A stretch of DNA of 64,000 bases, from NCBI GenBank assembly GCA_964468665.1, contig CAYXTS010000001.1, positions 3,418-67,417 of the forward strand. The letters run 5' to 3'. This stretch comes from an uncultured Candidatus Saccharibacteria bacterium (GTDB lineage: Bacteria > Patescibacteriota > Saccharimonadia > Saccharimonadales > Saccharimonadaceae). Positions 9,688-43,153 of the stretch are shown here, one piece after another. Under the pieces are notes generated by a model. It searched no databases. It was given only the letters and a program-made list of their open reading frames with translations, and was not told the origin of the DNA. Position 1 is the first letter of the stretch. Every line of letters begins with the position of its first letter. The position numbers and the translations under genes are program-made.

Positions 9688-11883
9688 ATGAATAAAATTG
9701 TGGAGGGACTAAACGAGAGACAGAGAGAGGCAGTGGAGACGCTCTCCGGGCCTGTATTGATACTTGCGGGGGCGGGGTCGGGAAAAACCAAGACGCTGAC
9801 ACATCGGATTGCGAATTTGATCAAGTATGGAGTAGAACCTGGACGAATTCTTGCGGTAACGTTTACAAATAAGGCGGCGAAAGAGATGCGAGGGCGGTTG
9901 TGGAACTTGCTAAAGGATGTTCTGGGGACGGGGTCGACTCGGCTCGTCGTCACGGGCGAGTCGCCCCTCGCTACCTCGGTCGTAACCTCCGGAGCGCCCC
10001 GAGAACATCCTTTAGCAAGTTCTCAGGAGCCGCCGCGATCTTTCATGCCGTATATGGGGACGTTTCACGGGATTGCGGTGAGGATTCTGAGGATTGAAGC
10101 AGAGGCAATTGGACTGGATAGGAATTTTGTGATTTATGATACGGACGACCAGGTGTCTTTGATTCGGCGAGTGATGAAGGAGCTGAAATTATCAGACAAT
10201 AAACAATTAAAACCAAAATCTATTCAATCAATTATTTCTGGAGAGAAGAATGTTGGTAATGGACCGGAAGATTATGCTATGAAAGCTTTTTATCCGAATC
10301 AACAAAATATTGCGAAAATTTTCAAAAAATATGAGGAAGAAAAAGAAAAGGCAGGGGCATTAGATTTTGATGATTTGTTGTTAAAAGAGTTGGAACTTTT
10401 GCAGAATTATCCAGAAATTAGACAAAAATGGCAGGAGAAGTTTCGGCATATTTTAATTGATGAGTATCAGGACACTAATCAAGTACAGTATAATATTGTG
10501 AAGTTGTTAGTAAACAAAGAGCGAAATATTTGCGTGGTGGGGGATGATTGGCAGTCTATCTATTCGTGGCGAGGGGCGGATTTTACGAATATTTTGAATT
10601 TTGAGTGGGATTTTCCGGGCGCTAAGTGTATAAAACTGGAACAGAATTATCGGTCTACTGGAAATATTCTCGAAGCGGCTCAGAAAATTATCAATGAGAA
10701 CAAGACTCGGACGGAGAAGACTTTGTTTACGGAATCTGGCAAGGGTGAGCCGGTGGATATAGAGTCTTTGCAGGACGAAACAGCAGAGGCGAATTATGTG
10801 GCACTAAAGATTTTGAATATGCAGCGAGATTATGGTGATTTTAGTGATTTTGCGGTGCTGTATCGGACAAATGCGCAGTCGTATGCTTTTGAAAAGGCGT
10901 TTATAGATATGCATATTCCATATAAAATTGTGGGTGGGGTGAGATTTTATGATAGGAAGGAAGTAAAGGATGTTTTGGCGCTATTAAAACTCGTATTGAA
11001 TCAACGGGATAAGGTAAGTTTGGCTAGGGTAGTAAACAACGTGTTGTCTGGAGTGGGGGAGGCGTCGCTTGTTAAGGTGCTCACAGCGATGGATGCGGTG
11101 GAAGGGGCAAGACCGCTATTTGATGCAGACGTGCCGGAAGTGCTGAAGGCCGGAAAGGCTAAAAACGGGTTAATGCGACTAATTGGATTTTTGAAAAAAT
11201 GTCAAAATGAGACAAATGTCTCACAAAATACAGGGGTAAGTGACAATTTTGGTGGGATGATGAATGTAGGCGAGATGGTGAGACTGGCGGTGGAGTATTT
11301 TGATTTTAGGAAACTGACGGATGATGGTACGCCAAGTAGCGATGAGAGGATGGGGAATCTGGAAGTACTAGTGGCCAATGCGACGGCGTATGATAGCTTG
11401 GAGGAGTTTTTGGCGGATGCGAGTTTGATGTCGTCGGCGGATGAGTCATCGGCGAAAAACTCTGTGACTCTGATGACGCTCCATGCAGCGAAAGGATTGG
11501 AGTTTCCGGTGGTGTTTATTGTGGGGATGGAAGAGGGGTTGTTTCCAAGCGGACGAGTGCTAGAGAATAATGCAGAGTTAGAGGAGGAGCGGAGACTAAT
11601 GTATGTGGGGATGACGAGGGCGATGCAGAGATTGTTTTTGACTTATGCGGGCTCTAGGTATGCTTATGGAAATAGGAGCTACAATATGCCGTCTAGGTTT
11701 TTGATGGAATTAGGGTACAATCCGTACGGTTCAGCTGGATACAAAGATAGAAATGGGGATGGTTTTACAGATATGGACGGCGAAGGGAGCGCCTATAGAT
11801 TTTCCGACGATAGTGAGTTTTTGGACAGTGATTTTGAGGGTGATTTTGACCCGTTTCCAGATGATTTACTGGTGTATGAATGA
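9688..11883 (+). CDS. pcrA: UvrD/PcrA ATP-dependent DNA helicase with a ~40-aa palindromic-element insertion
   Basis: AGAGSGKT, TFTNKAA, IDEYQD, VGDDWQSIY, LEQNYRS, TLHAAKGLEF, EERRLMYVGMTRA. Confidence 0.96.
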   Translation: MNKIVEGLNERQREAVETLSGPVLILAGAGSGKTKTLTHRIANLIKYGVEPGRILAVTFTNKAAKEMRGRLWNLLKDVLGTGSTRLVVTGESPLATSVVTSGAPREHPLASSQEPPRSFMPYMGTFHGIAVRILRIEAEAIGLDRNFVIYDTDDQVSLIRRVMKELKLSDNKQLKPKSIQSIISGEKNVGNGPEDYAMKAFYPNQQNIAKIFKKYEEEKEKAGALDFDDLLLKELELLQNYPEIRQKWQEKFRHILIDEYQDTNQVQYNIVKLLVNKERNICVVGDDWQSIYSWRGADFTNILNFEWDFPGAKCIKLEQNYRSTGNILEAAQKIINENKTRTEKTLFTESGKGEPVDIESLQDETAEANYVALKILNMQRDYGDFSDFAVLYRTNAQSYAFEKAFIDMHIPYKIVGGVRFYDRKEVKDVLALLKLVLNQRDKVSLARVVNNVLSGVGEASLVKVLTAMDAVEGARPLFDADVPEVLKAGKAKNGLMRLIGFLKKCQNETNVSQNTGVSDNFGGMMNVGEMVRLAVEYFDFRKLTDDGTPSSDERMGNLEVLVANATAYDSLEEFLADASLMSSADESSAKNSVTLMTLHAAKGLEFPVVFIVGMEEGLFPSGRVLENNAELEEERRLMYVGMTRAMQRLFLTYAGSRYAYGNRSYNMPSRFLMELGYNPYGSAGYKDRNGDGFTDMDGEGSAYRFSDDSEFLDSDFEGDFDPFPDDLLVYE
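9903..10022 (+). mobile_element. family-A palindromic element, in frame in pcrA
   Basis: Perfect 21-bp inverted repeat gaacttgctaaaggatgttct/agaacatcctttagcaagttc around a GC-rich core. Shares cgtcgtcacggg and tacctcggtcgtaacctccgga with the pepN copy. Confidence 0.8.
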
Positions 11884-12006
11884 TGGGTGATGTGGAAAAG
11901 ATTTTGTAAAAAACTTAATAAAACTATTGCTTAAAATAAAAACAAGCATTATAATAAAGAGTATTAGAATGTTAAATTCAAAATAGATCATAGGAGAAAC
12001 AAAGAA

Positions 12007-15000
12007 GTGCATTTTTTGGGGCATAGAAGATGTGTAGAGATGGGGGGGATTGTCGCAGTGGCGGTGGGCGTCATCGGTTCTGCTTTGGGTGCTGCTCCGG
12101 TTTCCGCTTATACTACTTCTATTACTACATCTGGGACGGTCTCGGTGGATGTATCTTCTGCTGGTAATGGAGCAAGTCTCGGTACAGATAGTGTAGTAGT
12201 GAATTCCACTTGTCCGCTAGGCTATACTTTGTCCATTGGTGGTCCTAGTGATTCTAACTTATATAAGGGCGGGGACAGTACTAGTGGTTATGCCATTAAT
12301 GCTTCTTCTGGTACAGCTGCTAACCCTGTGCCTATATTAGGCAATAACTATACCAATACATGGGGTTATACTACAGCTAGCAGTCCTACGATTAATTCTA
12401 ATTTTATCGGTTTATCTAGCACTACGAACACAATAGCCACTAAATCATCCGCTTCCGCTAGCGGTGGAGATACGGTATCAGTCCATTATGGTGTATCGGC
12501 AGATAAATCCTTAGAGGCTGGACGCTATACTATGGCAAATAGTGGAGCGGTAACATACTATCTCATCCAAAATCCTAATTGTTCTATAGTAAACGTAGCT
12601 TATGATGGCAATAACGCTACTGCTGGCTCTATGGGTGCACTTGCCCACAACAATGTAGCAGAGAATAGTAGTATAAATCTCTATCCATCCAACTATTCTA
12701 AAAATGGCTATGGTTTTGCTGGCTGGTCTACTGAGCAAATAGATCCAGATGCTAGTAATGCCGCTACCCTTATTAGTACCGCAGCAGCAAATGGTAATAT
12801 CTATGGTCCTATGGCTACCATTACTGCAGATGCTAATTTCTTAAGTCATGCAACAGTATCAGGTAATAATCTAGTCGTAACATTATATGCCGTTTGGGTA
12901 AAGCCAGTCAATAACGCTACACTCCAGGGTTGGACTGGGTGCCCTAGTATGAACCAGGGTGACGTCATCGCGCTAAAAGATCAGCGTGACAGCAATGCCT
13001 ATGCTGTAGCTAAGCTAGCTGATGGTAACTGTTGGATGATAGAAAATCTACGGTTAGATGCCGAAAATACCAGAGGAGCAAGCAATATCGCTCTTTCACA
13101 AGGCTACAACACTACTAACTTCACTGGTCTAGCAGATGCAGAAAACACTAACTTCTCTGATTCCACTACTACTAACTACAAAAATACCAATACTGCCTAC
13201 TATGGTGCAGATAATAGTGGTGCAGAAATTATTATCTCAGCTTCAGATCATACTTATAATAGTACAGATTATTCTGGTTATCATTTCCCACGTTATAATA
13301 ATAGCAATACCTCTTCTCGCAATTCTTCTCCTAGTGATGGAACTACGGCATTATATTCTTACGGTAATTATTACACTTGGTCTGCCGTAGTTGCCGACAC
13401 TACATTCTATCATACTAACAACCAATCTGTTACTGATACCTCACTTTGTCCTAAGAACTGGCGTCTCCCACAAGGTGGTAATAAAACCAGAATTACATCA
13501 AATGATGATAATGACTTCTGGAACCTAACTGTAGATTATCTAAACGGTGGTACTAACCCTGCCAACTATGATAGTAACACACAACCATATTACACAGGAA
13601 CAGCAGAAGCCACTCCAGTAGCCAATAAACTTAGAAGTTATCCCAATAACTTCCTCTACTCCGGCAACTTCTATACGTCGTCAGCGAATTATAGAGGTAG
13701 TTACGGCTACTATTGGTCGTCTACTGCGGACGGTAACAGCAATAGCTACTACTTGTACCTGAATAGTTCCTACGTGTACCCAGGTACCAGTAGTAGCAAT
13801 AAGTCCCGCGGCAACAGTATTAGGTGTATAGCCATTACAGACTACACTGTCCATTTTGATGCTAATGGCGGAAGTGGGACAATGAGTAATCAGACAATAT
13901 CTGCTGGTGCAGCTACTGCGCTTTCTACTAATACCTTTACTCCACCAAATGCTGTTGCCATCTTTGATGGCTGGAACACAGCAGCTGATGGTAGTGGTAC
14001 TAGCTATACGGACGGCGAATCTGTAACCAATCTCACTACCGTAGGACAAACCATTACCCTCTATGCTCAATGGAAGACCTACTTATATAATGCTGTATCG
14101 GTTCAATCTAAAGGCAAGCAAACTAACGATACCAATACTACGACTGGCATCAAGACCAATCCTACTGCCCCTACTTCATCAGCTACAGTTTCTCCTAACT
14201 CTGGTGTCTATGAGTATGATAGTAGTGTATTCGGTGCAGATACTGATGGTACTAAGAGTGACAGCACTAAAGCTACCATCTACTACTACCGTGGCATTCT
14301 AGACAGTTATGGCAATACTAATACCAATGGTAGTGCAGGGCTCTCCGATGCTTATCCAAACTACGTCATTCTTTCTGCAAATGGTACCAAATCCACTTCT
14401 GATACCTGCTGGCGTATTATCCGTACTACTGGCTCTGGTGGTGTAAAGATGATTTATAACGGTCTTTGGACTGGGTCTACCTGTGCTAATGGTACTACCA
14501 GTACTAGAATTAGCTCACCTGTTACTACTAGTACATTTAATGGTACAGCTAGCACGCAAGCGCAGGCTCGTCAGGCTGTGCGTGTAGGTTACACCCATAA
14601 CAGTACTTATGCAACAACTTCAGGTTCTAATGTAGCGGTGGATACATTGTTTGGCAGTGATTCTAATTATTCTGTAAACGATGCCAATTCTACTGTTAAA
14701 GATAATATAGAGACTTGGTTTGGTGATACTTTAAGTGATTATGAGGGCATGTTGGAATCAAATGCTAATTATTGCAATGATCGTTCTGCCTTTACTACGA
14801 CAGCTGGGACTACTGCCACTTCTACTCTTTATTCATATACCACCTCTACTAGTACTGGTACTAGCTATAGAACTTATTTTGGGTCTTATGTCAGGAACAT
14901 GACCACCAATAAAGCCCCAAGTTTAGGATGTTCTCGTAGTACAGTAGATAGATATAGCACTAGTACTAGTGCTGGTGGTAATGGGCAGCTATCATCACCT

Positions 15001-16035
15001 GTGGCTTTAATTACGGCAGACGAAGCGAGCTTTGCTGGTTCTGGTAGTAGTACCGCTAGCCAGGGCTCCGGCTATAGTGCCAACTCGTTCCTTAGAACTG
15101 GCGATACATTTTGGACTATGTCGCCTTATTATCGTTCGGGTTCTTACGCTTATAATTTCTATATGAACGCTAACGGTTATATGACTTATGGGCGTGTTGA
15201 TACCCAATATGATATCCGCCCAGTCATCTCATTTAAAGAAGGCACTACGATCGCTTCTGGCTCTGGTATTGCTACGGATCCGTGGGTGGTGAAAGTAGAT
15301 ACTGGTGGTATTTCGTATATGCAGAATTTGACACCTGTAACTTGTCAGAAGAACGTGGGAGCAGATGGAATAGGTGATGAATTTACAGCTTACGATAAAC
15401 GTGACAACAAAGATTATACGGTTCGCTATATCAATGGTTCTTGTTGGATGACCCAAAATCTTCGTTTTACGGATACTTCGGTTTCTGTTGCCAAATCTAA
15501 TGTTACTACTGACAAAACCCTTACTTATTATAGTTTAGATTCTAGTGACTCGTCTTATAGTGGCCATTGTGATAGTACTAATGCTTATGATAATGCCTGC
15601 ATCAAGGATTCTGGTTCTACTTCTACTGGAGTGTGGTACAACTACTATGCTGCTACTGCTGGTACTATTGCTGGTTCTTCTAATAACACTAATGCTACGC
15701 AAGATATTTGCCCAAAAAATTGGCATCTACCTTCTGCTCCTAATACTACAAGTGGTACTGACTTTAATGAGTTAATAGGTAATACTAACTCTGGGTGGCA
15801 GAGTGCCACTGCTGGTCTTACTGCTTTTGGCGCTGTTGCTGGTGGTGCTTATTCTATGACTACGGGTTCACTTATTAATACTGGATACGGTTATTGGTGG
15901 TCTGCTACTGCGCGGACTACTACATCACGTAATAATATGCGTTATCTTAGTAGTAGTAATACCTTTAATGGTAATGATTACTATGGTCGGGATACTTTTG
16001 GATTCTATGTCCGTTGCGTTCTTAGCGATACATAA
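12007..16035 (+). CDS. large secreted/surface protein: FISUMP-like domain, InlB-B-type repeat, DUF6273-like lectin-fold domain, second FISUMP-like domain
   Basis: Signal/TM N-terminus. DGNCWMIENL..CPKNWRLP..GYYWSST..SIRC; HFDANGGSG..FDGWNTAADGSG..LYAQW; WTMSP..IRPVISF; GSCWMTQNL..CPKNWHLP..YVRC. SD AGGAGA before GTG. Confidence 0.8.
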   Translation: MHFLGHRRCVEMGGIVAVAVGVIGSALGAAPVSAYTTSITTSGTVSVDVSSAGNGASLGTDSVVVNSTCPLGYTLSIGGPSDSNLYKGGDSTSGYAINASSGTAANPVPILGNNYTNTWGYTTASSPTINSNFIGLSSTTNTIATKSSASASGGDTVSVHYGVSADKSLEAGRYTMANSGAVTYYLIQNPNCSIVNVAYDGNNATAGSMGALAHNNVAENSSINLYPSNYSKNGYGFAGWSTEQIDPDASNAATLISTAAANGNIYGPMATITADANFLSHATVSGNNLVVTLYAVWVKPVNNATLQGWTGCPSMNQGDVIALKDQRDSNAYAVAKLADGNCWMIENLRLDAENTRGASNIALSQGYNTTNFTGLADAENTNFSDSTTTNYKNTNTAYYGADNSGAEIIISASDHTYNSTDYSGYHFPRYNNSNTSSRNSSPSDGTTALYSYGNYYTWSAVVADTTFYHTNNQSVTDTSLCPKNWRLPQGGNKTRITSNDDNDFWNLTVDYLNGGTNPANYDSNTQPYYTGTAEATPVANKLRSYPNNFLYSGNFYTSSANYRGSYGYYWSSTADGNSNSYYLYLNSSYVYPGTSSSNKSRGNSIRCIAITDYTVHFDANGGSGTMSNQTISAGAATALSTNTFTPPNAVAIFDGWNTAADGSGTSYTDGESVTNLTTVGQTITLYAQWKTYLYNAVSVQSKGKQTNDTNTTTGIKTNPTAPTSSATVSPNSGVYEYDSSVFGADTDGTKSDSTKATIYYYRGILDSYGNTNTNGSAGLSDAYPNYVILSANGTKSTSDTCWRIIRTTGSGGVKMIYNGLWTGSTCANGTTSTRISSPVTTSTFNGTASTQAQARQAVRVGYTHNSTYATTSGSNVAVDTLFGSDSNYSVNDANSTVKDNIETWFGDTLSDYEGMLESNANYCNDRSAFTTTAGTTATSTLYSYTTSTSTGTSYRTYFGSYVRNMTTNKAPSLGCSRSTVDRYSTSTSAGGNGQLSSPVALITADEASFAGSGSSTASQGSGYSANSFLRTGDTFWTMSPYYRSGSYAYNFYMNANGYMTYGRVDTQYDIRPVISFKEGTTIASGSGIATDPWVVKVDTGGISYMQNLTPVTCQKNVGADGIGDEFTAYDKRDNKDYTVRYINGSCWMTQNLRFTDTSVSVAKSNVTTDKTLTYYSLDSSDSSYSGHCDSTNAYDNACIKDSGSTSTGVWYNYYAATAGTIAGSSNNTNATQDICPKNWHLPSAPNTTSGTDFNELIGNTNSGWQSATAGLTAFGAVAGGAYSMTTGSLINTGYGYWWSATARTTTSRNNMRYLSSSNTFNGNDYYGRDTFGFYVRCVLSDT

Positions 16036-16361: not shown

Positions 16362-16437
16362 TGGTCTGGGTGATCGGACTTGAACCGACGACCTCAGCGT
16401 CCCGAACGCTGCACGCTACCAACTGCGCTACACCCAG
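16362..16437 (-). tRNA. tRNA-Pro(CGG)
   Basis: Cloverleaf; anticodon arm CAGCG TT-CGG-GA CGCTG; 3' CCA. Confidence 0.94.
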
Positions 16438-19473: not shown

Positions 19474-21984
19474 ATGGAAAGATTTTTGGATTATTTTGTA
19501 CCAGAGAGATATGTCTTGGATATCGTGATTGATAAGGAGAGAAAGACGATTGGTGGAGAGGTGCTAGTAGAGGGGGAGATTTTGGCAGAAATAGTGAAGT
19601 TTCATGTGGTGGAATTAGAGGTGGACTATGTGGAGGTGAATGGCAAAAAGGTGGAATTTAAATATGAAAATGGCGTTTTGAGCCTTTTTAAGGCTCCTCT
19701 GGGGAGTGGAGATATTAAAATAGGGTACCATGGCTCTCTAAATGAAAACATGGAAGGAGCGTATCTTTCTACCTATGAATATAAGGGAAAAACAGAGGTG
19801 ATTGTGGCAACACAGTTTGAATCGCATTATGCTAGAGAAGCATTCCCTTGTATCGATGAACCAGCAGCAAAAGCCGTATTTGAACTATCTATTTCTATTC
19901 CGGATGGTTCAAAAGATATAGTGTTGTCCAATATGCCAACAAAGGACGAACTAGAGATACGTTTATTCTCGGGCCGAGGTTCCTCGCTCCCGTCGTCACG
20001 GGGCTCGGACCCCTCATACCTCGGTCGTAACCTCCGGACGCCCTCGAATAAAGTATCTTCGGGTTCGTCTCCATGTTATCACACTATATCTTTTGAGCCG
20101 ACTCCGAGGATGTCTACATATTTACTAGCTTGGGTGGTTGGGCGTTTTCATGGCAAAACGGTGAAGAATAGTCATGGAGTGGAGATTACGACTTATGTGG
20201 CTATGAATCAGGATCTGGATTCGGTGGATTTTGCAAATGAGGTAGCGGCGAAGAGCTTGGAATTTTATGATGATAATTTTGGGGTACCGTATCCTTTGAG
20301 GAAGCTAGATCAAGTGGCATTGCCGGATTTTGAAGCAGGTGCGATGGAAAACTGGGGGTTGGTAACGTATCGTGAGTCAATGTTACTAATTGGAAAAACA
20401 GCAACTGTTAGTGACAAAAAGAGCGTAGCATTGACAGTAGCACATGAATTGTCGCATCAATGGTTTGGAGATTTGGTGACAATGGAATGGTGGGATGATT
20501 TGTGGTTGAATGAATCTTTTGCTAGTGTGATGGAATATTATGCTATCCAGGATATTTACCCGGAATTCAATATATTTGAGAGCTTTTTTACAAGAGATTG
20601 CTGTGCAGCGTTACTACGTGATGCATATACTGGAGTGCAGTCGGTACATCAAGACGTAAAAGACCCAGCGGAAATTGCTACTTTATTCGATTCTGCAATT
20701 GTGTATGCTAAGGGAGCGAGGCTGATGTTGATGCTGATTAGATTGATGGGTTGGGAAAGTTTTTGTAAAGGCATAAAGGATTATTTCAAAAAGTACCAGT
20801 ATAAAAATGCAGTAGGTGATGATTTATGGAGGAGCTTGAAGTCGTATGCGGATTTTGATCCGAAACAGATGATGCACGCATTTATTGATAGGCCGGGTTA
20901 TCCTGTCATAACGAATGAAGGTGAGGATTTTGAGAAGTTTTCACAAAAGCGGTTTTTGTTGGATGGGCCTCTTACGGATGAGAAATGGCCTTTGCCAAGA
21001 ATTACGGAGGATATGTCTGGACATTATGTTTTGAATTTGAATGAGAAAGAATTTGGTGAACGATTGGAGAACTATAATGAATTGGGGTTAGAGGAAAAAC
21101 TAAGACTTTTAATTGATAGAGATTTAATTACGAAATCTGGTATTCAGAGTGCTGTATCGCTATTTCCACTAGTAATGAAACTAAAAGATGAAGAATCGGC
21201 AGCAATTTGGAATAAAATAGTAGGGTTGATTGCTAATTTGAGAGTTTATTTTGATGATGATTCGGCTGAGGAGAAGATGCTGAAGGAGTTTGTTTTGAAA
21301 CTGATAGATAAAAAAATGGACAAGGTTGGAATTATGACATCTGATGATGACGACGAGAATATGATTCGGTTAAGAGCGAACTTGCTAGGATTAGATTATT
21401 TTGCGGAGGATAGGAAGAGGTTTGAGCAGCTTGCTAAGATGTATGAAAGCAATCCGAGTGAGATGGATAATGAAATTCGTTTTGATATTCTGAGTGCTAA
21501 GGTGTATTTAGACTCTAGTGTTGTGGATGGGTACATGAAGATTTATAAAAATGTAGTGGAACCAGACATAAAGTATGATTATTTAGCGGCGGCAACATTG
21601 GTACGGGGTGAAAAATACTTACAGAAGCTAGTGGGATTACTTGGTGATGTAAAGGTAGTAAAGCCACAGGACCAATTGCACTTGTTTGTCTATCTGTACC
21701 GGAACCCAAAATCCAGAGCACAGGTATTTGAGTGGCTGACAAAGAATTGGGATTTTGTGGAGAAAACGGGCGGGGAGAAAACACTAAGTGATTATCCAAT
21801 GCTGGTAGCACGAATGGCGCGAACTGAGGATGAGCTAGAGCGATTCGAAAGATTTTTCGGGCCGATGCGAGAAGAGCCAGCTCTTTCTAGGGCGATTGAA
21901 ATTGGTGAAAATGAAATAAGGGCCAGAATAAAGATGATTCAGGAAAACCAAGAAGCGGTAATTAACGAGTTAAAGAAGTATTAG
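19474..21984 (+). CDS. pepN: M1 family aminopeptidase N with palindromic-element insertion
   Basis: TQFESHYAREAFPCIDEP, GAMENWG, HELSH-x18-E, VYAKG. Confidence 0.95.
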   Translation: MERFLDYFVPERYVLDIVIDKERKTIGGEVLVEGEILAEIVKFHVVELEVDYVEVNGKKVEFKYENGVLSLFKAPLGSGDIKIGYHGSLNENMEGAYLSTYEYKGKTEVIVATQFESHYAREAFPCIDEPAAKAVFELSISIPDGSKDIVLSNMPTKDELEIRLFSGRGSSLPSSRGSDPSYLGRNLRTPSNKVSSGSSPCYHTISFEPTPRMSTYLLAWVVGRFHGKTVKNSHGVEITTYVAMNQDLDSVDFANEVAAKSLEFYDDNFGVPYPLRKLDQVALPDFEAGAMENWGLVTYRESMLLIGKTATVSDKKSVALTVAHELSHQWFGDLVTMEWWDDLWLNESFASVMEYYAIQDIYPEFNIFESFFTRDCCAALLRDAYTGVQSVHQDVKDPAEIATLFDSAIVYAKGARLMLMLIRLMGWESFCKGIKDYFKKYQYKNAVGDDLWRSLKSYADFDPKQMMHAFIDRPGYPVITNEGEDFEKFSQKRFLLDGPLTDEKWPLPRITEDMSGHYVLNLNEKEFGERLENYNELGLEEKLRLLIDRDLITKSGIQSAVSLFPLVMKLKDEESAAIWNKIVGLIANLRVYFDDDSAEEKMLKEFVLKLIDKKMDKVGIMTSDDDDENMIRLRANLLGLDYFAEDRKRFEQLAKMYESNPSEMDNEIRFDILSAKVYLDSSVVDGYMKIYKNVVEPDIKYDYLAAATLVRGEKYLQKLVGLLGDVKVVKPQDQLHLFVYLYRNPKSRAQVFEWLTKNWDFVEKTGGEKTLSDYPMLVARMARTEDELERFERFFGPMREEPALSRAIEIGENEIRARIKMIQENQEAVINELKKY
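19944..20070 (+). mobile_element. family-A palindromic element, in frame in pepN
   Basis: Arms agatac-g-tttattc/gaataaa-gtatct, extendable to ggacgaac/gttcgtct. 22-nt and 12-nt exact matches to the pcrA copy. Confidence 0.8.
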
Positions 21985-33663: not shown

Positions 33664-33749
33664 TGAACGGGTGGCGCCTGGAGGGGGACCCCAAAAATGT
33701 TTTACAAAGTAAAAATTTTGGGGGAGGAAAAGGCGACAGGACCCGTTCA
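33664..33749 (+). mobile_element. family-B palindromic element in the clpC 5' UTR
   Basis: Nested inverted repeats tgaacgggt/acccgttca, cgcct/aggcg, ccccaaaa/ttttgggg, ttttac/gtaaaa; homologous to 42000-42087. Confidence 0.75.
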
Positions 33750-36233: not shown

Positions 36234-36818
36234 ATGGCTAAAAATTATTTAGTACCGACAGTGGTAGAAGAAACTAATAAAGGTGAGAGAGCTTACGATA
36301 TTTATTCAAGGCTTCTCAATGATAGGATTGTGTTTTTGGGTGAGGATGTGAATCCTCATACAGCTAATTTGGTGATTGCGCAGTTACTATATCTTGCACA
36401 TGAGGATAATAAAAAACCGATTAAATTATATATTAATTCACCAGGCGGGTCAGTTTATGATGGGCTGGCAATCATTGATACGAAGAATTATATTTAGCCG
36501 GATGTGTAGACGATTTGGTTTGGCCTGCAGTCTTAGATGGGGGCGATGTTACTTAGCTCTGGTGCGAAGGGCAAGAGGTATTGTCTCCCAAATGCGCGGA
36601 TTATGATTCATCAGCCGTCATCTGGTACGGAAGGCAAAATTACCGACCAGGAGATTATGTTGCGTGAGGGTGTGTTTTTGAAAAAGCGTCTTGCAGAGAT
36701 TTTTGCCAAAAATACGGGCAAAGATTTGAAACAAGTGGAAAAAGATATGGATCGGGATAATTGGATGAGTGCAGAAGAAGCTTTGAAATATGGAATTATC
36801 GATAAAATAATAAAATAA
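36234..36818 (+). pseudogene. clpP: ClpP protease subunit with three in-frame TAG codons (likely local sequence error)
   Basis: [14 protein letters not shown] and MIHQP..G in one frame. TAG at 36495, 36507 and 36534; the last is at the catalytic Ser position. Confidence 0.85.
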
Positions 36819-37010
36819 ATCATAACATTAAGATTTAAAAACATAATGTTAAGTTTTTGAAACATAACATTATGTTTTTTGAATGGAATTTTTAGCTAAC
36901 AGGGGTGAAATTTATGAAAAAAATGCTTGCGTTTATTCAAAAAAAATGATAGGATGGACTTGTGTAAAGGTCAAACACAATATAAAAACAATAATTAAAA
37001 TAAAAACAAA

Positions 37011-40000
37011 ATGTCTCCACACTATAAAACAAATATTATTTTTGTGCATAAAGCAATCGTTAGTTTACTGATTGCCTTTGTTGCAAGCTTTATTATCAAC
37101 GAAAATTCTGTTTTGGCTTATTCTTCTTCTATTACTACTTCGGGATTGGTGCAAGTAGATGTGTCTTCTACTGGTAATGGCGCCAGTGTGGGAACTGATG
37201 ACGTGATGGTAAATTCTACTTGTCCTTTGGGTTATACTTTGACCATTGAGGGTCCGAGCGATAGTAATTTGTATAAGGGTGGTGACGACACAAGTAATTA
37301 TAGTATTGCTTCTTCTGCTGGTACCTCTGATAACCCACTTCCTATTATTGGTGATGACGGACAGGGGTATAGTTATATGAATACTTGGGGTTATACTACG
37401 GAGTCTGGAGCTACTTTTAAGTCGAATTTTATTGGCTTAACTAATACAGCTACTACCCTTGCCACCAAATCATCCGCTTCTGCTAGCGGTGGTGATACCG
37501 TATCGGTTCACTATGGCGTATCGGCAGATAAATCGTTGGAGGTTGGATTATACACTATGGCGAATAGTGGAGCAGTGACTTACTATCTTGTTCAGAATCC
37601 TAGTTGCTCTACGATTGATGTGGTATATGATGGGAATGATGCTTCGGATGGGTCTATGGGTACTTTGTCTCATAGTAATGTAGCGGAGAATAGTAGTTTA
37701 GACTTATATCCGTCAAACTATTCGCGGGATGGTTATGGTTTTGCTGGGTGGTCTACTGAGCAGATAGATCCAGATGCAAATAATGCTGCTACACTTATTA
37801 GTACCGCTGCAGCTAATGGTAATATCTATGGTCCAATGGCTACCATTACTGCAGATGCTAATTTCTTAAGTCATGCTACAGTATCAGGTAATAATCTAGT
37901 CGTAACATTATATGCCGTTTGGGTAAAGCCAGTTGATAATGCTACTTTGCAGGATTTTATTTGCCCAGATAATACTGTTATGCCAGTTGGATCGGTGATT
38001 GCTCTAAAAGATCAGCGTGACAGCAATGCCTATGCTGTAGCCAAACTAGCTGATGGTAATTGTTGGATGATAGAGAACTTACGTTTAGATAATACCAATA
38101 GCGATAATTCTACGGGTGCACTGGCACAAGGCTATCATGGTGATACTATATTCGACCCAGAACTCGGTGGTATCTTTGCTGGCCTAGCTGACCCAGAATT
38201 CGATACTTTTTCTGACACCGCTATGGCAAACAGCCTATATTATAGCGGCACTCCATCTGGTACAGCTAGCATTAATATTGGTACAGACCATCCAGGTTAC
38301 CGTATGCCTCGTTATAACAATGAGAATACTTCGTCTAGAGCTTCTAGCCCAACAGACGATAATGGTGCTATGTATAGCTACGGTAATTACTACACTTGGG
38401 CGGCAGCTATAGCTAATACTTTTGGTTACAGTAATACTTTTCCAACAGATGATAACGGAAACACTAGTGAAACTGCAGGTACTTCCATTTGTCCTAAAGG
38501 CTGGAAGTTGCCATATGGTAAGGATACCGATAATGGAGCAACAAAGGGAGGTTTTTATTATCTTGGTTCTCAAATGGGGGCAACAGCAAGTAGTGAGGCG
38601 AGCTCTAAAATTTGGCGGAGCTACCCTAACAACTTCCTTTACTCCGGCTATTATTATGGTTCGTCTGCCAGTTCTAGAGGTTCTAGGTATAGTTATGGAA
38701 TGCATAGCGGCGATGGCTACTATTGGACATCTACCGTATATAGTATTGCAGGCTCGTATTCGCTGCTCATAAATGATTCGGGTGTTGCACCGGGTACTGG
38801 TAGGCCAATTAAAACCAATGGGAACAGCATTAGGTGCCTCGCTATCACAGACTACACTGTTCACTTTGACGCCAATGGTGGTAGTGGCACTATGAGCGAC
38901 CAAACTATTAATGTAAATACAGCTACTGCTCTTACTTCCAATGCCTTTACTGCGCCTGCAAACAGTGTATTTGCTGGTTGGAACACAGCAGCTGATGGCG
39001 GTGGTACTAGCTATACGAATGGACAATCTGTCACAGATATTACTACACCAGGAAAAACCATTACGCTTTATGCTCAGTGGGAGCCTGTAGGTTATAATGT
39101 GAAAGTTAATTTTGCAGGTAATGGCGTGAGTAATGTAAGGTTTACGGCAAGTGGATATACGACTAGGGTTGTGTCTACGAGTGGTGGCACTGCTAATTTG
39201 GTAGCAGGGGTGCAATATACTGTTACAATGAATTTTGTTAATGCCAATAATTATGAATTTGATAGTTGGGCATTAAATAGCAGTAGCTATGGGACTTTGT
39301 CTTCGACATCTGTAAATCCGACTTATTTTACGCCAAATGCTAATAGTGGGAGTGCGATAATCACGGCTACTGGGAAAGTGAAAGTGGTTTATATGCAGGA
39401 TTTGACGCTTGCAAGTTGCCAGAAAAATGTAGGGTCGAATGGTATAGGTGATGAATTTACTGTATATGATAAACGAGATGACAAGGATTACACCGTGCGC
39501 TATATCAATGGTTCTTGTTGGATGACGCAAAACTTGCGGTTTACAGAAACATCTTTGAATCTTGAAACTTCTAACGTTGGTGTTAATAAAACTATTTCTT
39601 ATGGTGATTTGACTTCTGGTGATAGCAATGTGGTAGCTAGAATTCATGAATCGGGCGATGATACGATTGGTGTTTGGTATAATTACGCGGCAGCTTCGGC
39701 TATGTATATTGCTACGAATTCTAATAGTAACTATTCTAGCTATGACATTTGTCCGAAGAATTGGCATTTGCCGACTGGGCCTAATACTACCGCAGACACT
39801 GACCTTAATATGTTAATAGGTAATACAATTTCCGATTTCCAGGATTTAACTGCAGGATTAGATAGTTTTGTGGATATTAATGGTGGTATTTATAGTGGTG
39901 GTACGTTAGGAAGTTCTAGCCTTGGTGGTTGGTGGTCTGGTACGGCTGGAAGTACGACTACACGTTACGCATTGATTTATGATGGTACAAATAGAATTCC

Positions 40001-40094
40001 AATGGGGGATCATTATGTGGGTGGTTTGATTAGTGGGGATGAAACAGAGTCTAGAGGAAGTGGTATGTTTGTGCGATGCGTGCGCAGTTCATAA
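37011..40094 (+). CDS. large secreted/surface protein paralogous to 12007-16035 (two FISUMP-like domains, InlB-B-type repeat)
   Basis: Same N-terminal module, DGNCWMIENL, CPKGWKLP, NSIRC, HFDANGGSG, GSCWMTQNL, FVRC. Confidence 0.8.
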   Translation: MSPHYKTNIIFVHKAIVSLLIAFVASFIINENSVLAYSSSITTSGLVQVDVSSTGNGASVGTDDVMVNSTCPLGYTLTIEGPSDSNLYKGGDDTSNYSIASSAGTSDNPLPIIGDDGQGYSYMNTWGYTTESGATFKSNFIGLTNTATTLATKSSASASGGDTVSVHYGVSADKSLEVGLYTMANSGAVTYYLVQNPSCSTIDVVYDGNDASDGSMGTLSHSNVAENSSLDLYPSNYSRDGYGFAGWSTEQIDPDANNAATLISTAAANGNIYGPMATITADANFLSHATVSGNNLVVTLYAVWVKPVDNATLQDFICPDNTVMPVGSVIALKDQRDSNAYAVAKLADGNCWMIENLRLDNTNSDNSTGALAQGYHGDTIFDPELGGIFAGLADPEFDTFSDTAMANSLYYSGTPSGTASINIGTDHPGYRMPRYNNENTSSRASSPTDDNGAMYSYGNYYTWAAAIANTFGYSNTFPTDDNGNTSETAGTSICPKGWKLPYGKDTDNGATKGGFYYLGSQMGATASSEASSKIWRSYPNNFLYSGYYYGSSASSRGSRYSYGMHSGDGYYWTSTVYSIAGSYSLLINDSGVAPGTGRPIKTNGNSIRCLAITDYTVHFDANGGSGTMSDQTINVNTATALTSNAFTAPANSVFAGWNTAADGGGTSYTNGQSVTDITTPGKTITLYAQWEPVGYNVKVNFAGNGVSNVRFTASGYTTRVVSTSGGTANLVAGVQYTVTMNFVNANNYEFDSWALNSSSYGTLSSTSVNPTYFTPNANSGSAIITATGKVKVVYMQDLTLASCQKNVGSNGIGDEFTVYDKRDDKDYTVRYINGSCWMTQNLRFTETSLNLETSNVGVNKTISYGDLTSGDSNVVARIHESGDDTIGVWYNYAAASAMYIATNSNSNYSSYDICPKNWHLPTGPNTTADTDLNMLIGNTISDFQDLTAGLDSFVDINGGIYSGGTLGSSSLGGWWSGTAGSTTTRYALIYDGTNRIPMGDHYVGGLISGDETESRGSGMFVRCVRSS

Positions 40095-40115
40095 TAGTTG
40101 TGATATAATTTGAAT

Positions 40116-40544
40116 ATGAAAATATTGTGGACTGATGGGAGTGCAAGTCCGAATCCGGGGCCAGGAGGGTTTGCAGTGATTGAGGTTGATGACGATAATG
40201 CTCGTCCGGTAGTTTTGGGACGTGAAAAGAACACTACTAATATCAGGATGGAAGGTTCAGCGATGATTGCGGCGATTAAATATGCTGGGGATGAAGGTTG
40301 CGAAATCCATTCGGATTCGGAATTTTGGATTAATGTTCTGACAAAGTGGGCTGATGGTTGGGCAGCGAATGGTTGGAAGAAAAAGACCGGTGCGATTAAA
40401 AATTTAGACTTAGTGAAAGAATTATATGAATTATATAATAAATTTTCGGTGAAGTTGGTTTGGGAAAAGGGGCATGACGGGATAGAGTTCAATGAAATGG
40501 CAGATGAGTGGGCTAATAAAGCCAGACAAGGCAAAGAGTTGTGA
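40116..40544 (+). CDS. rnhA: ribonuclease HI
   Basis: TDGSASPNPGPGG, TNIRME, SDS, NLDL, W.KGH, NEMAD. Confidence 0.94.
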   Translation: MKILWTDGSASPNPGPGGFAVIEVDDDNARPVVLGREKNTTNIRMEGSAMIAAIKYAGDEGCEIHSDSEFWINVLTKWADGWAANGWKKKTGAIKNLDLVKELYELYNKFSVKLVWEKGHDGIEFNEMADEWANKARQGKEL

Positions 40545-40556
40545 TATAATTATCTC

Positions 40557-41894
40557 ATGAAACTATCAGAGGAACTTATTTATCGTGGCTTTATGGCCGA
40601 AACAACTATTGAAAATCCTGTGGATTTGGATACGAGAGAATCGAAAAAGTTCTATTGGGGAGCGGATCCGTCGGCAGATTCTTTGACAATTGGAAATTTG
40701 GCGGCCATTATGATGTGCGCGTGTTTTGTACGCCATGGGTATCAACCGTATCTGTTGGTAGGCGGAGCGACGGGACAAATTGGAGATCCGAAAGAAAATG
40801 GCGAAAGAGAATTGAAATCTCTAGACGAAGTAGAGCATAATAAACAATGTATCAAAAGGCAAGTTGAAAAGGTGATTAGTAATGCTACTTCTCGACTCGC
40901 GCCTGCGCGCCCGTCGTTACGGGGCTCCGGCGCTCATTTCGTTCCCGTTGTCGCGGACGGTCTCGAAGTAGCATTGCCTAATCACCTCAACGTGACTATG
41001 GTTGATAATTATGACTGGTTCAAGGATATGAAGTATTTGGATTTTTTGCGCGAAGTGGGGAAGGCGTTTTCGATGACGCAGCTCTTAGATAGGCAGTTTG
41101 TGCAGAATCGGATTGGTGAAGGTGGTTCGGGGATTTCTTATGCAGAGTTTTCGTATACTTTGATCCAGGGTTATGATTTCCTACATCTTTATCGTGAATA
41201 TGGCGTGGATTTGCAGCTTTGTGGAGCGGATCAATATGGTAATTGTACTTCGGGGATTCATTTGATTAGAAGATTAGAGGATGGAGTGGCGGATGTGTGG
41301 TCTACGCCGTTAGTGATAGATCCGGTGACGGGACGAAAATTCGGTAAGTCTGAAGGGAATGCGATTTGGCTGGCAGTTTCGGATAATGGCAGCGGAAACT
41401 ATACTTCGATTTTCGATTTTTATCAATTTTGGTTGAATCAGTCGGATGAAGCAGTAGAATATTTGATAAAGATTTATACGCTTTATGATAAGGAAACAAT
41501 TGAGGATATTTTGAAGCAACATTTAGAAGCGCCGGAAAAACGGATTGCGCAGCGAGCTTTGGCGCGGGGAGTGACGGAAGTTGTGCATGGTAAGGAGGCG
41601 GCAGAGGCGGTAGAGAATTTGACAGAAATATTGTTTAGTCGCGAAACGAATTTTGCGGAGTTTAGCGAGGATGAGATTTTGGAATTTGCGAAATATTTGC
41701 CGACAGAAAAAAAGGGCGTGATGTTGGTGGATGCTTTGGTGAATAATGGTTTGGCTGAATCAAAAAAGAAAGCACGGGAATTTATTGCGCAAGGGGCGAT
41801 TACGATTAATGGTGAAAAGATTAAAGACGATATCGAACTTAATCAAACAGCGATTATTAAAAAGGGTAAAAATAAGTTTTTGATTGTAAAATGA
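40557..41894 (+). CDS. tyrS: tyrosine--tRNA ligase with palindromic-element insertion
   Basis: GADPSADSLTIGN (HIGH-like), IQGYDF, GADQYGN, KFGKS, C-terminal S4-like domain. Confidence 0.96.
   Translation: MKLSEELIYRGFMAETTIENPVDLDTRESKKFYWGADPSADSLTIGNLAAIMMCACFVRHGYQPYLLVGGATGQIGDPKENGERELKSLDEVEHNKQCIKRQVEKVISNATSRLAPARPSLRGSGAHFVPVVADGLEVALPNHLNVTMVDNYDWFKDMKYLDFLREVGKAFSMTQLLDRQFVQNRIGEGGSGISYAEFSYTLIQGYDFLHLYREYGVDLQLCGADQYGNCTSGIHLIRRLEDGVADVWSTPLVIDPVTGRKFGKSEGNAIWLAVSDNGSGNYTSIFDFYQFWLNQSDEAVEYLIKIYTLYDKETIEDILKQHLEAPEKRIAQRALARGVTEVVHGKEAAEAVENLTEILFSRETNFAEFSEDEILEFAKYLPTEKKGVMLVDALVNNGLAESKKKAREFIAQGAITINGEKIKDDIELNQTAIIKKGKNKFLIVK
40870..40987 (+). mobile_element. family-A palindromic element, in frame in tyrS
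   Basis: Arms aggtgattag/ctaatcacct and aatgctacttc/gaagtagcatt; core cccgtcgttacggg. Confidence 0.75.
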
Positions 41895-43153
41895 AATATT
41901 TAGCAGTTCTAGGTAGACAACCGGAAATATCTATTGCAGAACTTGAAGCTATTTATGGTGGGGTTGAGCGAGTTTCGGATGTCTTAGTGTATTTTACATT
42001 GACGGGTGACGACTCTGGAAGGGGACCCCAAAATGTTTTGCGAAGCAAAAATTTTGGGGAGGGAGAAGAGTCGGCAGGACCCGTCGAGAGTATAAATAGA
42101 CTGGGTGGAGTTTTGAAACTCGCTGTGGTATTGGATCAGAAGCCATTAGAATATTTGCAAAATTTGTCAGATGGGAAGATTACGATTGGGGTGAGTGATT
42201 ATTCTGAAAAGGCGTCGAGGAAAAGTGCACAACAAGAAGCGTTGAAACTTAAGAAGATTCTAGTGAGGCATGGACGCTCAGTGCGCGTGGTTGAAAATAA
42301 AGATGCTACGCTATCGACGGCCACTTCTTTACATAATGGTTTGTCGGGGAAAAACGAGAGAAAAGTAGAACTAATTAAAGTTGACGATGATTGGTATAGG
42401 GTGATTGGTGTGCAAGATATTGATTTTTATGCGAAGCGTGATCAGGCTAGACCGGCGCGTGATGCTAGGGTAGGCATGCTTCCGCCGAAGCTGGCGCAGA
42501 TATTGATTAATTTATGTGGCCCACTTAAGTCTGGTTCTGTCGTTTTAGATCCATTTTGTGGAACTGGTGTAGTGCTTCAAGAAGCGTTGTTGATGGGCTA
42601 TCGTGTCTATGGAACGGATATTAGTGATAGGATGGTGGAGTATAGTAGGAAAAATCTTAATTGGCTAGTGAGAGATAAAAATAGTCATTTTGAGGGGGTC
42701 CGGAGCCTGGCAAGGCGAGGAGTAGCGCCAGCCGCCCGTGGCGACGGGCCGGCTGGACGCGCCCCGAAAAATGTTCTATTTTATCTCTCTGCTGGCGATG
42801 CAATTTCTTATACTTGGCAACAGCCTATCGATGCGGTGGCGTGTGAGGGATATCTTGGGAAACCATTCCCTAGAATCCCGACGGAAATGGAATTAAAAGA
42901 ACAGAAACAGGAATGCGGGGCGATTGTGAGAGGATTTCTAAAGAATTTGGCGGAACAGATTAAGTCTGGTACGCCGGTGGTGATAGCAGCGCCGGCGTGG
43001 CTGAGGGAAAATGGTGAGTATGAGAGGTTAGATATGCTTGACGATATTCCTGATATGGGGTATAATGTTAATAATAAAACGCAAGAGGGGCTTCTTTACC
43101 ATCGCGATGGTCAGGTTGTTGCGAGAGATATATTAATTTTAAGGAAAAAGTAA
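41891..43153 (+). CDS. class I SAM-dependent (probable RNA) methyltransferase carrying two palindromic inserts
   Basis: GMLPPKLAQILIN, VLDPFCGTG, GTDI, ACEGYLG. Confidence 0.8.
   Translation: MKYLAVLGRQPEISIAELEAIYGGVERVSDVLVYFTLTGDDSGRGPQNVLRSKNFGEGEESAGPVESINRLGGVLKLAVVLDQKPLEYLQNLSDGKITIGVSDYSEKASRKSAQQEALKLKKILVRHGRSVRVVENKDATLSTATSLHNGLSGKNERKVELIKVDDDWYRVIGVQDIDFYAKRDQARPARDARVGMLPPKLAQILINLCGPLKSGSVVLDPFCGTGVVLQEALLMGYRVYGTDISDRMVEYSRKNLNWLVRDKNSHFEGVRSLARRGVAPAARGDGPAGRAPKNVLFYLSAGDAISYTWQQPIDAVACEGYLGKPFPRIPTEMELKEQKQECGAIVRGFLKNLAEQIKSGTPVVIAAPAWLRENGEYERLDMLDDIPDMGYNVNNKTQEGLLYHRDGQVVARDILILRKK
42000..42087 (+). mobile_element. family-B palindromic element, in frame in the methyltransferase
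   Basis: Nested inverted repeats gacgggt/acccgtc, cgactct/agagtcg, ccccaaaa/ttttgggg, ttttgc-gaa-gcaaaa. Confidence 0.75.
42670..42789 (-). mobile_element. family-A palindromic element, reverse orientation, in frame in the methyltransferase
   Basis: Arms gagagataaaa/ttttatctctc and cattttgagggg/ccccgaaaaatg; reverse-complement core cccgtcgccacggg. Confidence 0.75.

What the first reader, a model, noticed from the sequence alone, without database searches (positions are those of the whole stretch)
9903..42789. Family of ~120-nt palindromic elements inserted in frame into core genes (RPE-like system in a probable Saccharibacterium)
Seen: four GC-rich inserts, each a long terminal inverted repeat around an inner cccgt-N4-acggg hairpin, interrupt pcrA (9903-10022), pepN (19944-20070), tyrS (40870-40987) and a methyltransferase (42670-42789, reverse strand). 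The pcrA and pepN copies share exact 22-nt (tacctcggtcgtaacctccgga) and 12-nt (cgtcgtcacggg) blocks. The outer arms differ between copies but stay self-complementary. The shared core is translated as LVVTG (pcrA), PSSRG/PSLRG (pepN, tyrS) and ARGDG (antisense), so nucleic-acid structure is conserved and the peptide is not. All four ORFs stay open. Known: Rickettsia palindromic elements insert in frame into proteins, and REP/REPIN elements are moved by HUH (RAYT) transposases. Inference: this is a non-autonomous mobile family that adds about 35-40 aa loops to essential enzymes, or is removed at the RNA level. I do not know of it being described in CPR bacteria.
Basis: partly seen in the sequence, partly recalled or inferred. 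Interest (0 to 1): 0.9.

Follow-up and report, generated by a model that had tools for sequence, protein, structure and literature searches.

The report
In-frame hairpin elements with target-copied stems
A gut Saccharibacterium (Candidatus Nanosyncoccus) carries about 20 copies of a small GC-rich hairpin element sitting in frame inside essential genes, and at the sites that could be resolved its long outer stem is an inverted copy of the neighbouring gene sequence, which points to an unusual way of spreading with no transposase found.

Summary
All four inserts are at the stated coordinates, fold far better than shuffles (z -5 to -7.7) and leave their ORFs open.

They belong to a family with 20 copies in this 816-kb genome. 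Hosts include IleRS, AlaRS, LeuRS x2, ValRS, TyrRS, PcrA, PepN, QueA x2, Obg, TatD and PriA. The family is in 34 of 37 Ca. Nanosyncoccus genomes searched and in none of 24 other genera of the order.

Each copy has a conserved core of 63-73 nt (72% GC) that folds as a three-way junction. The core sits on a 22-34 bp stem whose sequence is specific to each copy.

Insert-free alleles exist. At pcrA (DNA level), tyrS and alaS, one stem arm is native gene sequence and the other is its inverted copy. What was added is therefore core plus an inverted duplicate of 17-28 nt of flank: 93 nt in pcrA and 102 nt in tyrS.

Every in-gene copy keeps the frame. In the PcrA model the insert is a disordered loop.

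No Y1/RAYT, rve or DDE_Tnp_1 transposase tracks the family, so the REP/RAYT idea fails. Removal at the RNA level is unlikely.

My best reading is an RPE-like selfish element that is translated as a loop. It probably spreads by template switching with fold-back synthesis, and alleles are then shuffled by recombination. The spreading mechanism is inferred, not shown.

The parts
9903..10022 (+). pcrA copy, whole hairpin (subfamily A1, sense to the ORF). Arms are 9903-9930 and 9995-10022.
9932..10024 (+). The 93 nt of the pcrA copy that are absent from the insert-free allele: the core plus an inverted copy of about 27 nt of the upstream native sequence (9903-9931).
   Evidence: DNA alignment A4 of empty L179, filled L181 and the window; proteins P0069 and P0002
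19944..20070 (+). pepN copy: arm 19944-19973, core 19974-20040, arm 20041-20070. It lies between LSNM and ISFEPTPxMSTYL, where M1 aminopeptidase structures have only 12 residues.
40871..40986 (+). tyrS copy (subfamily C): upstream arm 40871-40894 is native (encodes VISNA), core 40895-40961, downstream arm 40962-40986 is the inverted copy. The locus is 102 nt longer than the empty alleles.
42670..42789 (-). Methyltransferase copy (subfamily B), antisense to the + strand ORF 41891-43153.
9688..11883 (+). Host ORF pcrA/uvrD helicase. The insert occupies residues 78-112, between motif Ia (TFTNKAA) and motif Ib (GTFH).
40557..41894 (+). Host ORF tyrS. The insert lies between positions matching residues 108 and 121 of the B. 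stearothermophilus TyrRS chain 2ts1.

Best explanation
This is a non-autonomous selfish DNA family restricted to the genus Candidatus Nanosyncoccus (Saccharibacteria G3). The mobile unit is a GC-rich core of about 65-70 nt. It has a short basal stem (TTCTCGGG / CCCGAGAA), hairpin 1 with an invariant CCCGTCGYYACGGG tip, and a second hairpin that defines subfamilies A, B and C. At the three sites that could be resolved, an insertion adds the core plus an inverted copy of 17-28 nt of the adjacent target. This gives each copy its own 22-34 bp outer stem (shown). Copies that survive inside genes are those that add a multiple of 3 nt with no stop codon, and they lie between secondary-structure elements. 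They are most likely translated as disordered loops of about 31-34 aa rich in Arg, Ala, Gly, Pro and Ser (inferred from frame conservation and a structure model). I found no dedicated transposase. The mechanism I favour is replication or repair copy-choice: a nascent strand switches to a donor copy, copies the core, snaps back on its own basal stem, copies its own flank, and then returns to the original template (inferred, about 40%). Filled, empty and flipped alleles are afterwards exchanged between strains by homologous recombination, and the same tolerant loops are occupied again and again (the recombination tract and recurrent occupancy are shown).
For: Size and spread of the family: 20 copies in the genome, 34 of 37 genus genomes with 1-34 copies each, and 0 of 24 other genera. 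Record titles name Ca. Nanosyncoccus. Anatomy: core GC 0.72 against genome 0.41, and the variable parts of the arms are only 29.5% identical between copies, even where cores are identical as in alaS and leuS_b. Target-derived arm, pcrA: the empty allele reads ...GATTTGTTGCAAGATGTTTCAGGGACGG|AGGAGCC, and the filled allele has the same left flank followed by core + CGCCCCGAGAACATCTTGCAAACAAATC (the reverse complement of that flank) + TCA. Target-derived arm, tyrS: the upstream arm encodes VISN, matching VISSN in empty alleles. Target-derived arm, alaS: the downstream arm ETRCRLSG aligns with EGRKTLSG of A. aeolicus AlaRS 3htz. Frame: all 17-18 in-gene copies in G000 are open, and 67 copies in other genomes have at least 40 open codons on both sides, 40 sense and 27 antisense. 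Loop position: PcrA residues 78-112 have pLDDT about 30 and sit between a helix and a strand with pLDDT about 90. The TyrRS, AlaRS and PepN inserts fall in gaps relative to solved chains. No transposase: Y1 in 2 of 41 genomes, rve in 6 of 41, DDE_Tnp_1 in 1 of 41, none in G000, and RT presence is uncorrelated with copy number. Structure maintained at the nucleic-acid level: 98.4% paired, 257 double-change cells, covariation score 0.448 against 0.101 in shuffles (0 of 500 as high) and at most 0.085 in slid controls. Template switching is known to create and repair perfect stems in a single event (PMC8794818). Dynamics: the state of the one PcrA site changes at least 32 times over 118 homologues. 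A filled/empty pair that is 96% identical overall has its mismatches clustered around the site. The same core occurs in both orientations between the same basal stems.
Against: No de novo insertion was caught. The closest filled/empty pair (P0002/P0069) is only 88% identical as protein, and on the tree P0069 could be a secondary loss. Its TTTCAGGGACGG resembles the element's own 5' basal stem, so it may be an excision footprint rather than a pristine target. The arm that is native is the 5' arm in pcrA and tyrS but the 3' arm in alaS, so no fixed polarity supports one specific mechanism. In queA neither arm is recognisably native. Automated scoring of 29 sites against G000 empty alleles was uninformative and often favoured 'both arms foreign'. 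Only four transposase or RT families were tested, and the genome is about 93% complete. Translation is inferred, because no RNA or protein data were available. Core conservation between some orthologous copies (8% against 27% in the flanks) hints at a nucleic-acid function that I cannot name.
Confidence: 0.65

Rival explanations
1. It is a classical MITE or REP-like element that is cut and pasted in trans by a transposase (RAYT/IS200 Y1, a DDE enzyme, or an unrecognised enzyme of the bacterium, its host or a phage). Under this view the arms are terminal inverted repeats.
For: The element is a short repeated palindrome with a conserved basal inverted repeat (TTCTCGGG/CCCGAGAA) that could be a recognition site. 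Some genomes of the genus do carry Y1, rve or DDE genes. Only four families were tested.
Against: The arms outside the basal stem are copy-specific (29.5% identity) and one arm is native gene sequence. No direct target duplication is visible at pcrA or tyrS. Y1 is in 2 of 41 genomes, rve in 6 of 41 and DDE_Tnp_1 in 1 of 41, whereas the element is in about 92% of genomes, and G000 has none.
Confidence: 0.15
2. The inserts are removed or skipped at the RNA level, for example by RNase III-type cutting of the long stem followed by ligation, by intron-like excision, or by ribosomal bypass. The proteins would then be insert-free.
For: The stems are very stable, 22-34 bp, and bring the two junctions together. 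Nucleotide structure is conserved while the peptide is not.
Against: Every in-gene copy keeps the frame and has no stop, in three frames and both orientations, which excision would make unnecessary. Only about 32% of frames across an element are open by chance. Removing the whole hairpin would delete native conserved residues: VISN in TyrRS, WxLL in PcrA, RLSG in AlaRS. There is no Rfam intron or ribozyme match. Old copies decay as ordinary coding loops.
Confidence: 0.07
3. The core is a functional nucleic-acid signal kept by selection, for example a binding or processing site that tunes mRNA stability or translation of housekeeping genes, or a DNA recombination or uptake signal. Under this view it is not purely selfish DNA.
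For: Hairpin 1 has an invariant tip and strong covariation. The G000 and P0002 pcrA cores differ by 8% while the flanks differ by 27%. Many hosts are aminoacyl-tRNA synthetases and other housekeeping genes.
Against: Copy number ranges from 0 to 34 between sister genomes, and 3 genomes have none. Orientation relative to transcription is mixed, 40 sense and 27 antisense. Other orthologous cores diverge as fast as their flanks (21-36% against 29-39%). Empty alleles of the same genes are common. Large essential genes are simply the biggest targets in an 0.8-Mb genome.
Confidence: 0.12
4. The inserts are an assembly or binning artefact, such as chimeric joins at a repeat.
For: Three contigs of this MAG end inside a copy (C22, C51, C57), and Logan contigs break inside the core at 9981.
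Against: Contigs from four runs cross the left pcrA junction into the core with no differences. The same inserts at the same sites are found in independent assemblies from ENA, NCBI and JGI, including Ca. Nanosyncoccus alces.
Confidence: 0.01

Closest known systems
Rickettsia palindromic elements (RPEs)
   Same: Both are short palindromic repeats in a reduced, host-dependent bacterium. Both are inserted many times in frame into unrelated housekeeping genes, are predicted to sit in positions compatible with the fold, and have no known transposase (PMC10969869, plus my own knowledge of Ogata et al. 2000).
   Different: The sequence is unrelated and the phylum is different (Saccharibacteria/CPR). 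RPE copies are reported to encode a conserved peptide, whereas here the core is read in three frames and both orientations. Here the outer stem is copy-specific and, where resolved, copied from the target, which is not a described RPE feature.
REP/REPIN elements with RAYT (Y1/HUH) transposases, and IS200/IS605 derivatives
   Same: Both are hairpin-based repeats whose structure, not coding content, is conserved.
   Different: REPs are extragenic and depend on a resident RAYT. Here copies are mostly intragenic, and Y1 transposases are absent from G000 and from 39 of 41 genus genomes.
Classical bacterial MITEs (Correia, ERIC, BOX, RUP, QMITE)
   Same: Both are small non-autonomous repeats, occasionally in frame within ORFs.
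   Different: MITEs have family-wide TIRs and direct target-site duplications and derive from an IS. Here the TIR-like arms differ in every copy, no direct duplication was seen, and no parent IS was found.
Template-switch (quasipalindrome) mutations and fold-back priming
   Same: An inverted copy of adjacent sequence is created next to a small hairpin, which gives a perfect stem in one step. Compensatory GC-to-CG changes are consistent with intrastrand templating (PMC8794818; my own knowledge of the quasipalindrome work of Ripley and of Lovett).
   Different: Those are sporadic mutations, not a propagating family. Here a specific conserved core is carried to many loci.

Membership tests
RPE-like in-frame palindromic elements (functional class) | Repeated palindromic element of about 100-150 bp, in many copies per genome | tested here: met
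   20 copies in G000. Hairpins are 116-144 nt in 13 of the 16 full-length copies measured.
RPE-like in-frame palindromic elements (functional class) | Inserted in frame in unrelated protein-coding genes, with the ORF kept open | tested here: met
RPE-like in-frame palindromic elements (functional class) | Insert is translated and tolerated on the protein surface | tested here: inconclusive
   The PcrA model shows a disordered loop at residues 78-112, but the model as a whole is only moderate (mean pLDDT 67). The inserts fall in gaps relative to solved homologues. No RNA or protein data were available.
Rickettsia RPE families proper | Sequence homology to RPE-1 to RPE-10, and Rickettsiales host | tested here: not met
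   The host is Ca. Nanosyncoccus. Rfam gave no family match. A direct comparison with RPE sequences was not run.
REP/REPIN-RAYT | Resident Y1 (RAYT/IS200) transposase | tested here: not met
   PF01797 has 0 hits in G000 and hits in 2 of 41 genus genomes. The control genomes were detected.
REP/REPIN-RAYT | Extragenic location | tested here: not met
   17-18 of 20 copies lie inside long ORFs.
Classical MITE | Terminal inverted repeats shared by all copies | tested here: not met
   Only the 8-9 nt basal stem is shared. Outer arms are 29.5% identical between copies.
Classical MITE | Direct target-site duplication | tested here: not met
   None at pcrA (A4) or tyrS. An inverted duplication is found instead.
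Classical MITE | Related autonomous IS encoding a transposase | tested here: not met
   rve is in 6 of 41 genomes, DDE_Tnp_1 in 1 of 41, Y1 in 2 of 41, and none is in G000. Other families were not tested.
Self-splicing introns, ribozymes or inteins | Match to a known intron or ribozyme RNA family | tested here: not met
   Rfam at gathering thresholds finds only tRNAs in the window. The permissive scan of 12 copies finds only ALIL at 19.8 bits against a gathering score of 50. Intein motifs were not searched; at 31-34 aa the inserts are, to my knowledge, too short for an intein.
Template-switch / fold-back products | New sequence is the reverse complement of immediately adjacent sequence | tested here: met
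   pcrA at the DNA level, tyrS and alaS.

The most novel reading that the evidence does not exclude
A new class of transposase-free 'snap-back' selfish DNA. A small GC-rich hairpin core is copied into new sites by polymerase template switching and then builds its own long stem by fold-back copying of the target. It would therefore propagate using only the host replisome, and it would seed new surface loops in essential proteins of a CPR bacterium.
Probability: 0.35. Interest if true: 0.9.

Novelty: new variant of a known kind. Interest (0 to 1): 0.75.

Why it matters
In-frame palindromic elements are known in detail almost only from Rickettsia, and how they move has been open for 25 years. This is an independent case in the Candidate Phyla Radiation. 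It has hundreds of copies across many sequenced genomes, abundant filled, empty and flipped alleles, and a junction signature (an inverted rather than direct target duplication) that makes the insertion mechanism testable. It also shows how 0.8-Mb epibiont genomes with almost no transposases still generate protein length variation in aminoacyl-tRNA synthetases and helicases. It explains part of the contig fragmentation of these MAGs. It also warns annotators that 30-aa 'lineage-specific loops' in CPR proteins can be mobile DNA.

Tried and rejected
- Automated choice between 'upstream arm native', 'downstream arm native' and 'both arms foreign'. I tried it on 29 filled sites in other genomes against G000 empty alleles, at the DNA level and the protein level. 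The DNA scores were dominated by length effects. The protein scores were dominated by imprecise arm boundaries and low loop similarity. I discarded both and used hand-checked cases instead.
- Reads. Four gut-metagenome DNA runs hold the locus, but Logan contigs break inside the core. They show no clean empty allele of this strain. No RNA run was found.
- RAYT/IS200 partner: rejected.
- Reverse transcriptase partner: RTs are common in the genus, absent from G000 and uncorrelated with copy number.
- DDE transposases: rare.
- Rfam: no family.
- Adaptation of the core to be stop-free in all frames: rejected, with 3.76 of 6 frames open against 4.01 in composition-matched shuffles.
- Origin in a GC-rich host such as Actinobacteria: the pattern hits in Streptomyces, Mycobacterium and similar genomes do not match the element profile and are chance matches.
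- Fixed polarity of the native arm relative to the element: rejected, because pcrA and tyrS keep the 5' arm and alaS keeps the 3' arm.
- Strong within-genome concerted evolution: not clearly supported.
Full report
**1. Observation**

The four inserts are real and sit at the stated coordinates. An inverted-repeat scan returns 28-nt arms at 9903-9930/9995-10022 (93% complementary) and at 42670-42697/42762-42789.

Each region folds into a long outer stem capped by a three-way junction. The energies are -58 to -81 kcal/mol, z is -5.0 to -7.7, and no shuffle does as well.

The exact 22-nt and 12-nt blocks shared by the pcrA and pepN copies are present. All four host ORFs are open, and the core is read in different frames and orientations. 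Rfam finds only tRNAs in the window.

**2. Size and range of the family**

The window is C1:3418-67417 of an 816-kb, 60-contig genome with 41% GC. An iterated nhmmer profile finds 20 copies, and 17-18 of them lie inside long ORFs. The hosts are:

- IleRS, AlaRS, LeuRS (two copies), ValRS (two or three copies, with the gene split across contigs at an element) and TyrRS
- PcrA, PepN and QueA (two copies)
- Obg, TatD and PriA
- two methyltransferases

A covariance model (R1) finds the element in 34 of 37 genomes of the same genus, with 1-34 copies each. It finds none in 24 other genera of the same order.

A pattern scan of species-representative genomes names the hosts as Candidatus Nanosyncoccus / Candidatus Saccharibacteria from ruminant and human gut and mouth. 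Its hits in high-GC Actinobacteria and other phyla do not match the element profile, so they are chance matches.

I found no paper describing such elements in Saccharibacteria or Patescibacteria.

**3. Anatomy**

- The core is 63-73 nt and 72% GC.
- It has a short conserved basal stem (TTCTCGGG / CCCGAGAA, often with a TC/TC internal loop).
- Hairpin 1 has an invariant CCCGTCGYYACGGG tip.
- A second hairpin defines three subfamilies.
- Outside the basal stem lies a 22-34 bp stem with host-like composition.
- The sequence of that outer stem is unrelated between copies (29.5% pairwise identity). This holds even for alaS and leuS_b, whose cores are identical.

On 112 distinct copies, hairpin 1 is 98.4% paired. 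Nine of its 13 pairs show changes on both sides, mostly GC-to-CG swaps. The covariation score is 0.448, against 0.101 in shuffles (0 of 500 as high) and at most 0.085 when partners are slid. That alignment was fitted to the model, which inflates the figures somewhat.

**4. What was actually inserted**

Insert-free alleles are common. Three sites could be resolved.

*tyrS.* Most genus genomes lack residues of about 110-144. The empty alleles read ..E(N/R)V(I/V)(S/R)..|(D/N)V(I/T)..DNYDWF. This genome reads ..EKVISNA[TSR..core..LEVALPNHL]NVTMVDNYDWF. The upstream arm (GGTGATTAGTAATGCT) is therefore native, and the downstream arm is its reverse complement. The net gain is 102 nt.

*pcrA.* Among 120 database homologues I found P0069 (empty) and P0002 (filled). 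They are 88% identical outside gaps, and I fetched their DNA. The alignment shows:

- empty: ...GATTTGTTGCAAGATGTTTCAGGGACGG|AGGAGCC
- filled: the same left flank, followed by the core, then CGCCCCGAGAACATCTTGCAAACAAATC (the reverse complement of that flank, with one mismatch and two 1-nt insertions), then TCA, then the right flank

This is 93 nt in all. It corresponds to window 9932-10024.

*alaS.* The native arm is the downstream one. ETRCRLSGHDLFKLQDTYGFP aligns with [21 protein letters not shown] of A. aeolicus AlaRS, and 33 extra residues lie before it.

So an insertion is the core plus an inverted duplicate of one flank, with no direct target duplication. Which arm is native is not fixed relative to the element.

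Caveats:
- P0069 may be a secondary loss. Its TTTCAGGGACGG looks like the element's own basal stem.
- In queA neither arm is recognisably native.
- My automated tests of arm origin failed.

**5. Translated or removed?**

Every in-gene copy keeps the frame. That is 17-18 copies in G000 and 67 copies in other genomes with at least 40 open codons on both sides, 40 sense and 27 antisense. Only about 32% of frames across an element are stop-free by chance.

The core is no more stop-free than composition-matched shuffles (3.76 against 4.01 open frames of 6). The pattern is therefore a selection filter on insertions, not an adaptation of the element.

Removing the whole hairpin from the RNA would delete native conserved residues.

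In an AlphaFold model of PcrA, residues 78-112 have pLDDT of about 30 and no secondary structure. They lie between helix 61-78 and strand 123-125, which have pLDDT of about 90. The model as a whole is only moderate (mean pLDDT 67, pTM 0.47). The TyrRS, AlaRS and PepN inserts fall in gaps relative to solved chains.

No RNA runs were available, so translation remains an inference.

**6. Not an artefact**

Logan contigs of four metagenome runs cross the left pcrA junction into the core without a difference. Independent assemblies carry the same inserts.

**7. Mobilising enzyme**

| Family | Genus genomes with a hit (of 41) | In G000 |
|---|---|---|
| Y1_Tnp | 2 | no |
| rve | 6 | no |
| DDE_Tnp_1 | 1 | no |
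| RVT_1 | 31 | no |

RVT_1 is also missing from several high-copy genomes and present in zero-copy ones. None of the four tracks an element that is present in about 92% of genomes.

**8. Dynamics**

On a tree of 118 PcrA homologues, the state of this single site changes at least 32 times. The states are:

- empty
- family A sense in two frames
- family A antisense
- three other insert families

P0075 (filled) and P0110 (empty) are 96% identical overall, but their mismatches cluster in the first 400 nt around the site. That is a recombination tract.

P0076 and P0087 carry the same subfamily-B core in opposite orientations between the same basal stems. Either the core flips between its inverted arms or it re-inserts.

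Orthologous pcrA cores range from 8% divergence (flanks 27%) to 36% (flanks 36-39%), so fresh and decayed copies coexist.

**9. Mechanism**

Shown:
- a repeated core
- copy-specific, target-derived inverted arms at three sites
- frame-preserving survivors located in loops
- no common transposase
- recurrent site occupancy
- recombinational exchange of alleles

Inferred: the element spreads by polymerase template switching to a donor copy, followed by fold-back on the basal stem and copying of the nascent flank. This is a known way to create perfect stems and paired 'compensatory' changes in one event (PMC8794818). I put about 40% on this specific mechanism, about 15% on an unrecognised enzyme, and under 10% on RNA-level removal.

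**10. Comparison with known systems, and verdict**

The system works like the Rickettsia palindromic elements, which are in-frame palindromic repeats in housekeeping genes of a reduced genome (PMC10969869). It is not a member of those families. It also fails the defining tests for REP/RAYT elements and for classical MITEs.

The target-copied stem and the apparent absence of a transposase are the new features. My verdict is a new variant of a known kind, of high interest.

Noticed in passing
window 33666-33749 (clpC 5' UTR), window 42001-42085 (N-terminal part of the methyltransferase ORF); also G000 C3:~27311(-), C3:~5240(-), C10:~6299: A second, unrelated nested-hairpin family ('family B'), about 85 nt long, with 5 copies in the genome: GACGGGTG..GGAAGGGGACCCCAAAATGTTTTGC..GCAAAAATTTTGGGG..ACCCGTC. 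Unlike family A, its outer stem (GACGGGT/ACCCGTC) is conserved between copies. The queA copy is truncated where a family-A copy sits, so this looks like a nested insertion.
   Followed up: partly
PcrA homologues P0052, P0065, P0068, P0070, P0085 and others; G000 C4 ~11430-11500 (tatD): At least three further insert families occupy the same PcrA loop in other Nanosyncoccus genomes. Their peptides are ..GHTQGRSAEL....SSSGLEFSSTSYAG..VRNIRVENSNQ.. (the NIRVENSNQ motif is also in this genome's TatD, next to the family-A copy) and ..GGGGRNTSFEGPKTWASAPERPEKE...
   Followed up: no
G000 contig ends C22:1-75, C51:1-89, C57:1578-1650: Three contigs of the MAG end inside an element copy. The valS gene appears to be split between C57 and C51 at a copy. 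The elements are therefore a cause of assembly fragmentation in these genomes.
   Followed up: partly
L179 (P0069) against L181 (P0002), pcrA site: The 'empty' allele keeps TTTCAGGGACGG plus two extra codons compared with another empty lineage (P0110: GATGTAGCTGGTGAACCG). This may be a footprint of an in-frame excision rather than a never-occupied site.
   Followed up: partly
genus genomes G001-G064: Reverse-transcriptase genes of about 375-400 aa occur in 31 of 41 Nanosyncoccus genomes, though not in this assembly. A first-stage note proposes a DGR-type variable repeat at window 13663-13833. No RT was found in G000 to go with it.
   Followed up: no
L074 (contig JAZQJE010000005.1, labelled Acutalibacteraceae MAG): A 2.4-kb contig binned as a Firmicute carries a typical family-A copy inside a gene whose best match is a G000 ORF. 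It is probably a mis-binned Saccharibacteria contig.
   Followed up: no
L014:28-68, L015:56-96 (alaS and leuS_b copies): A sub-threshold Rfam match of hairpin 1 to the ALIL pseudoknot (19.8 bits, gathering score 50, E 0.015). I treated it as chance.
   Followed up: no
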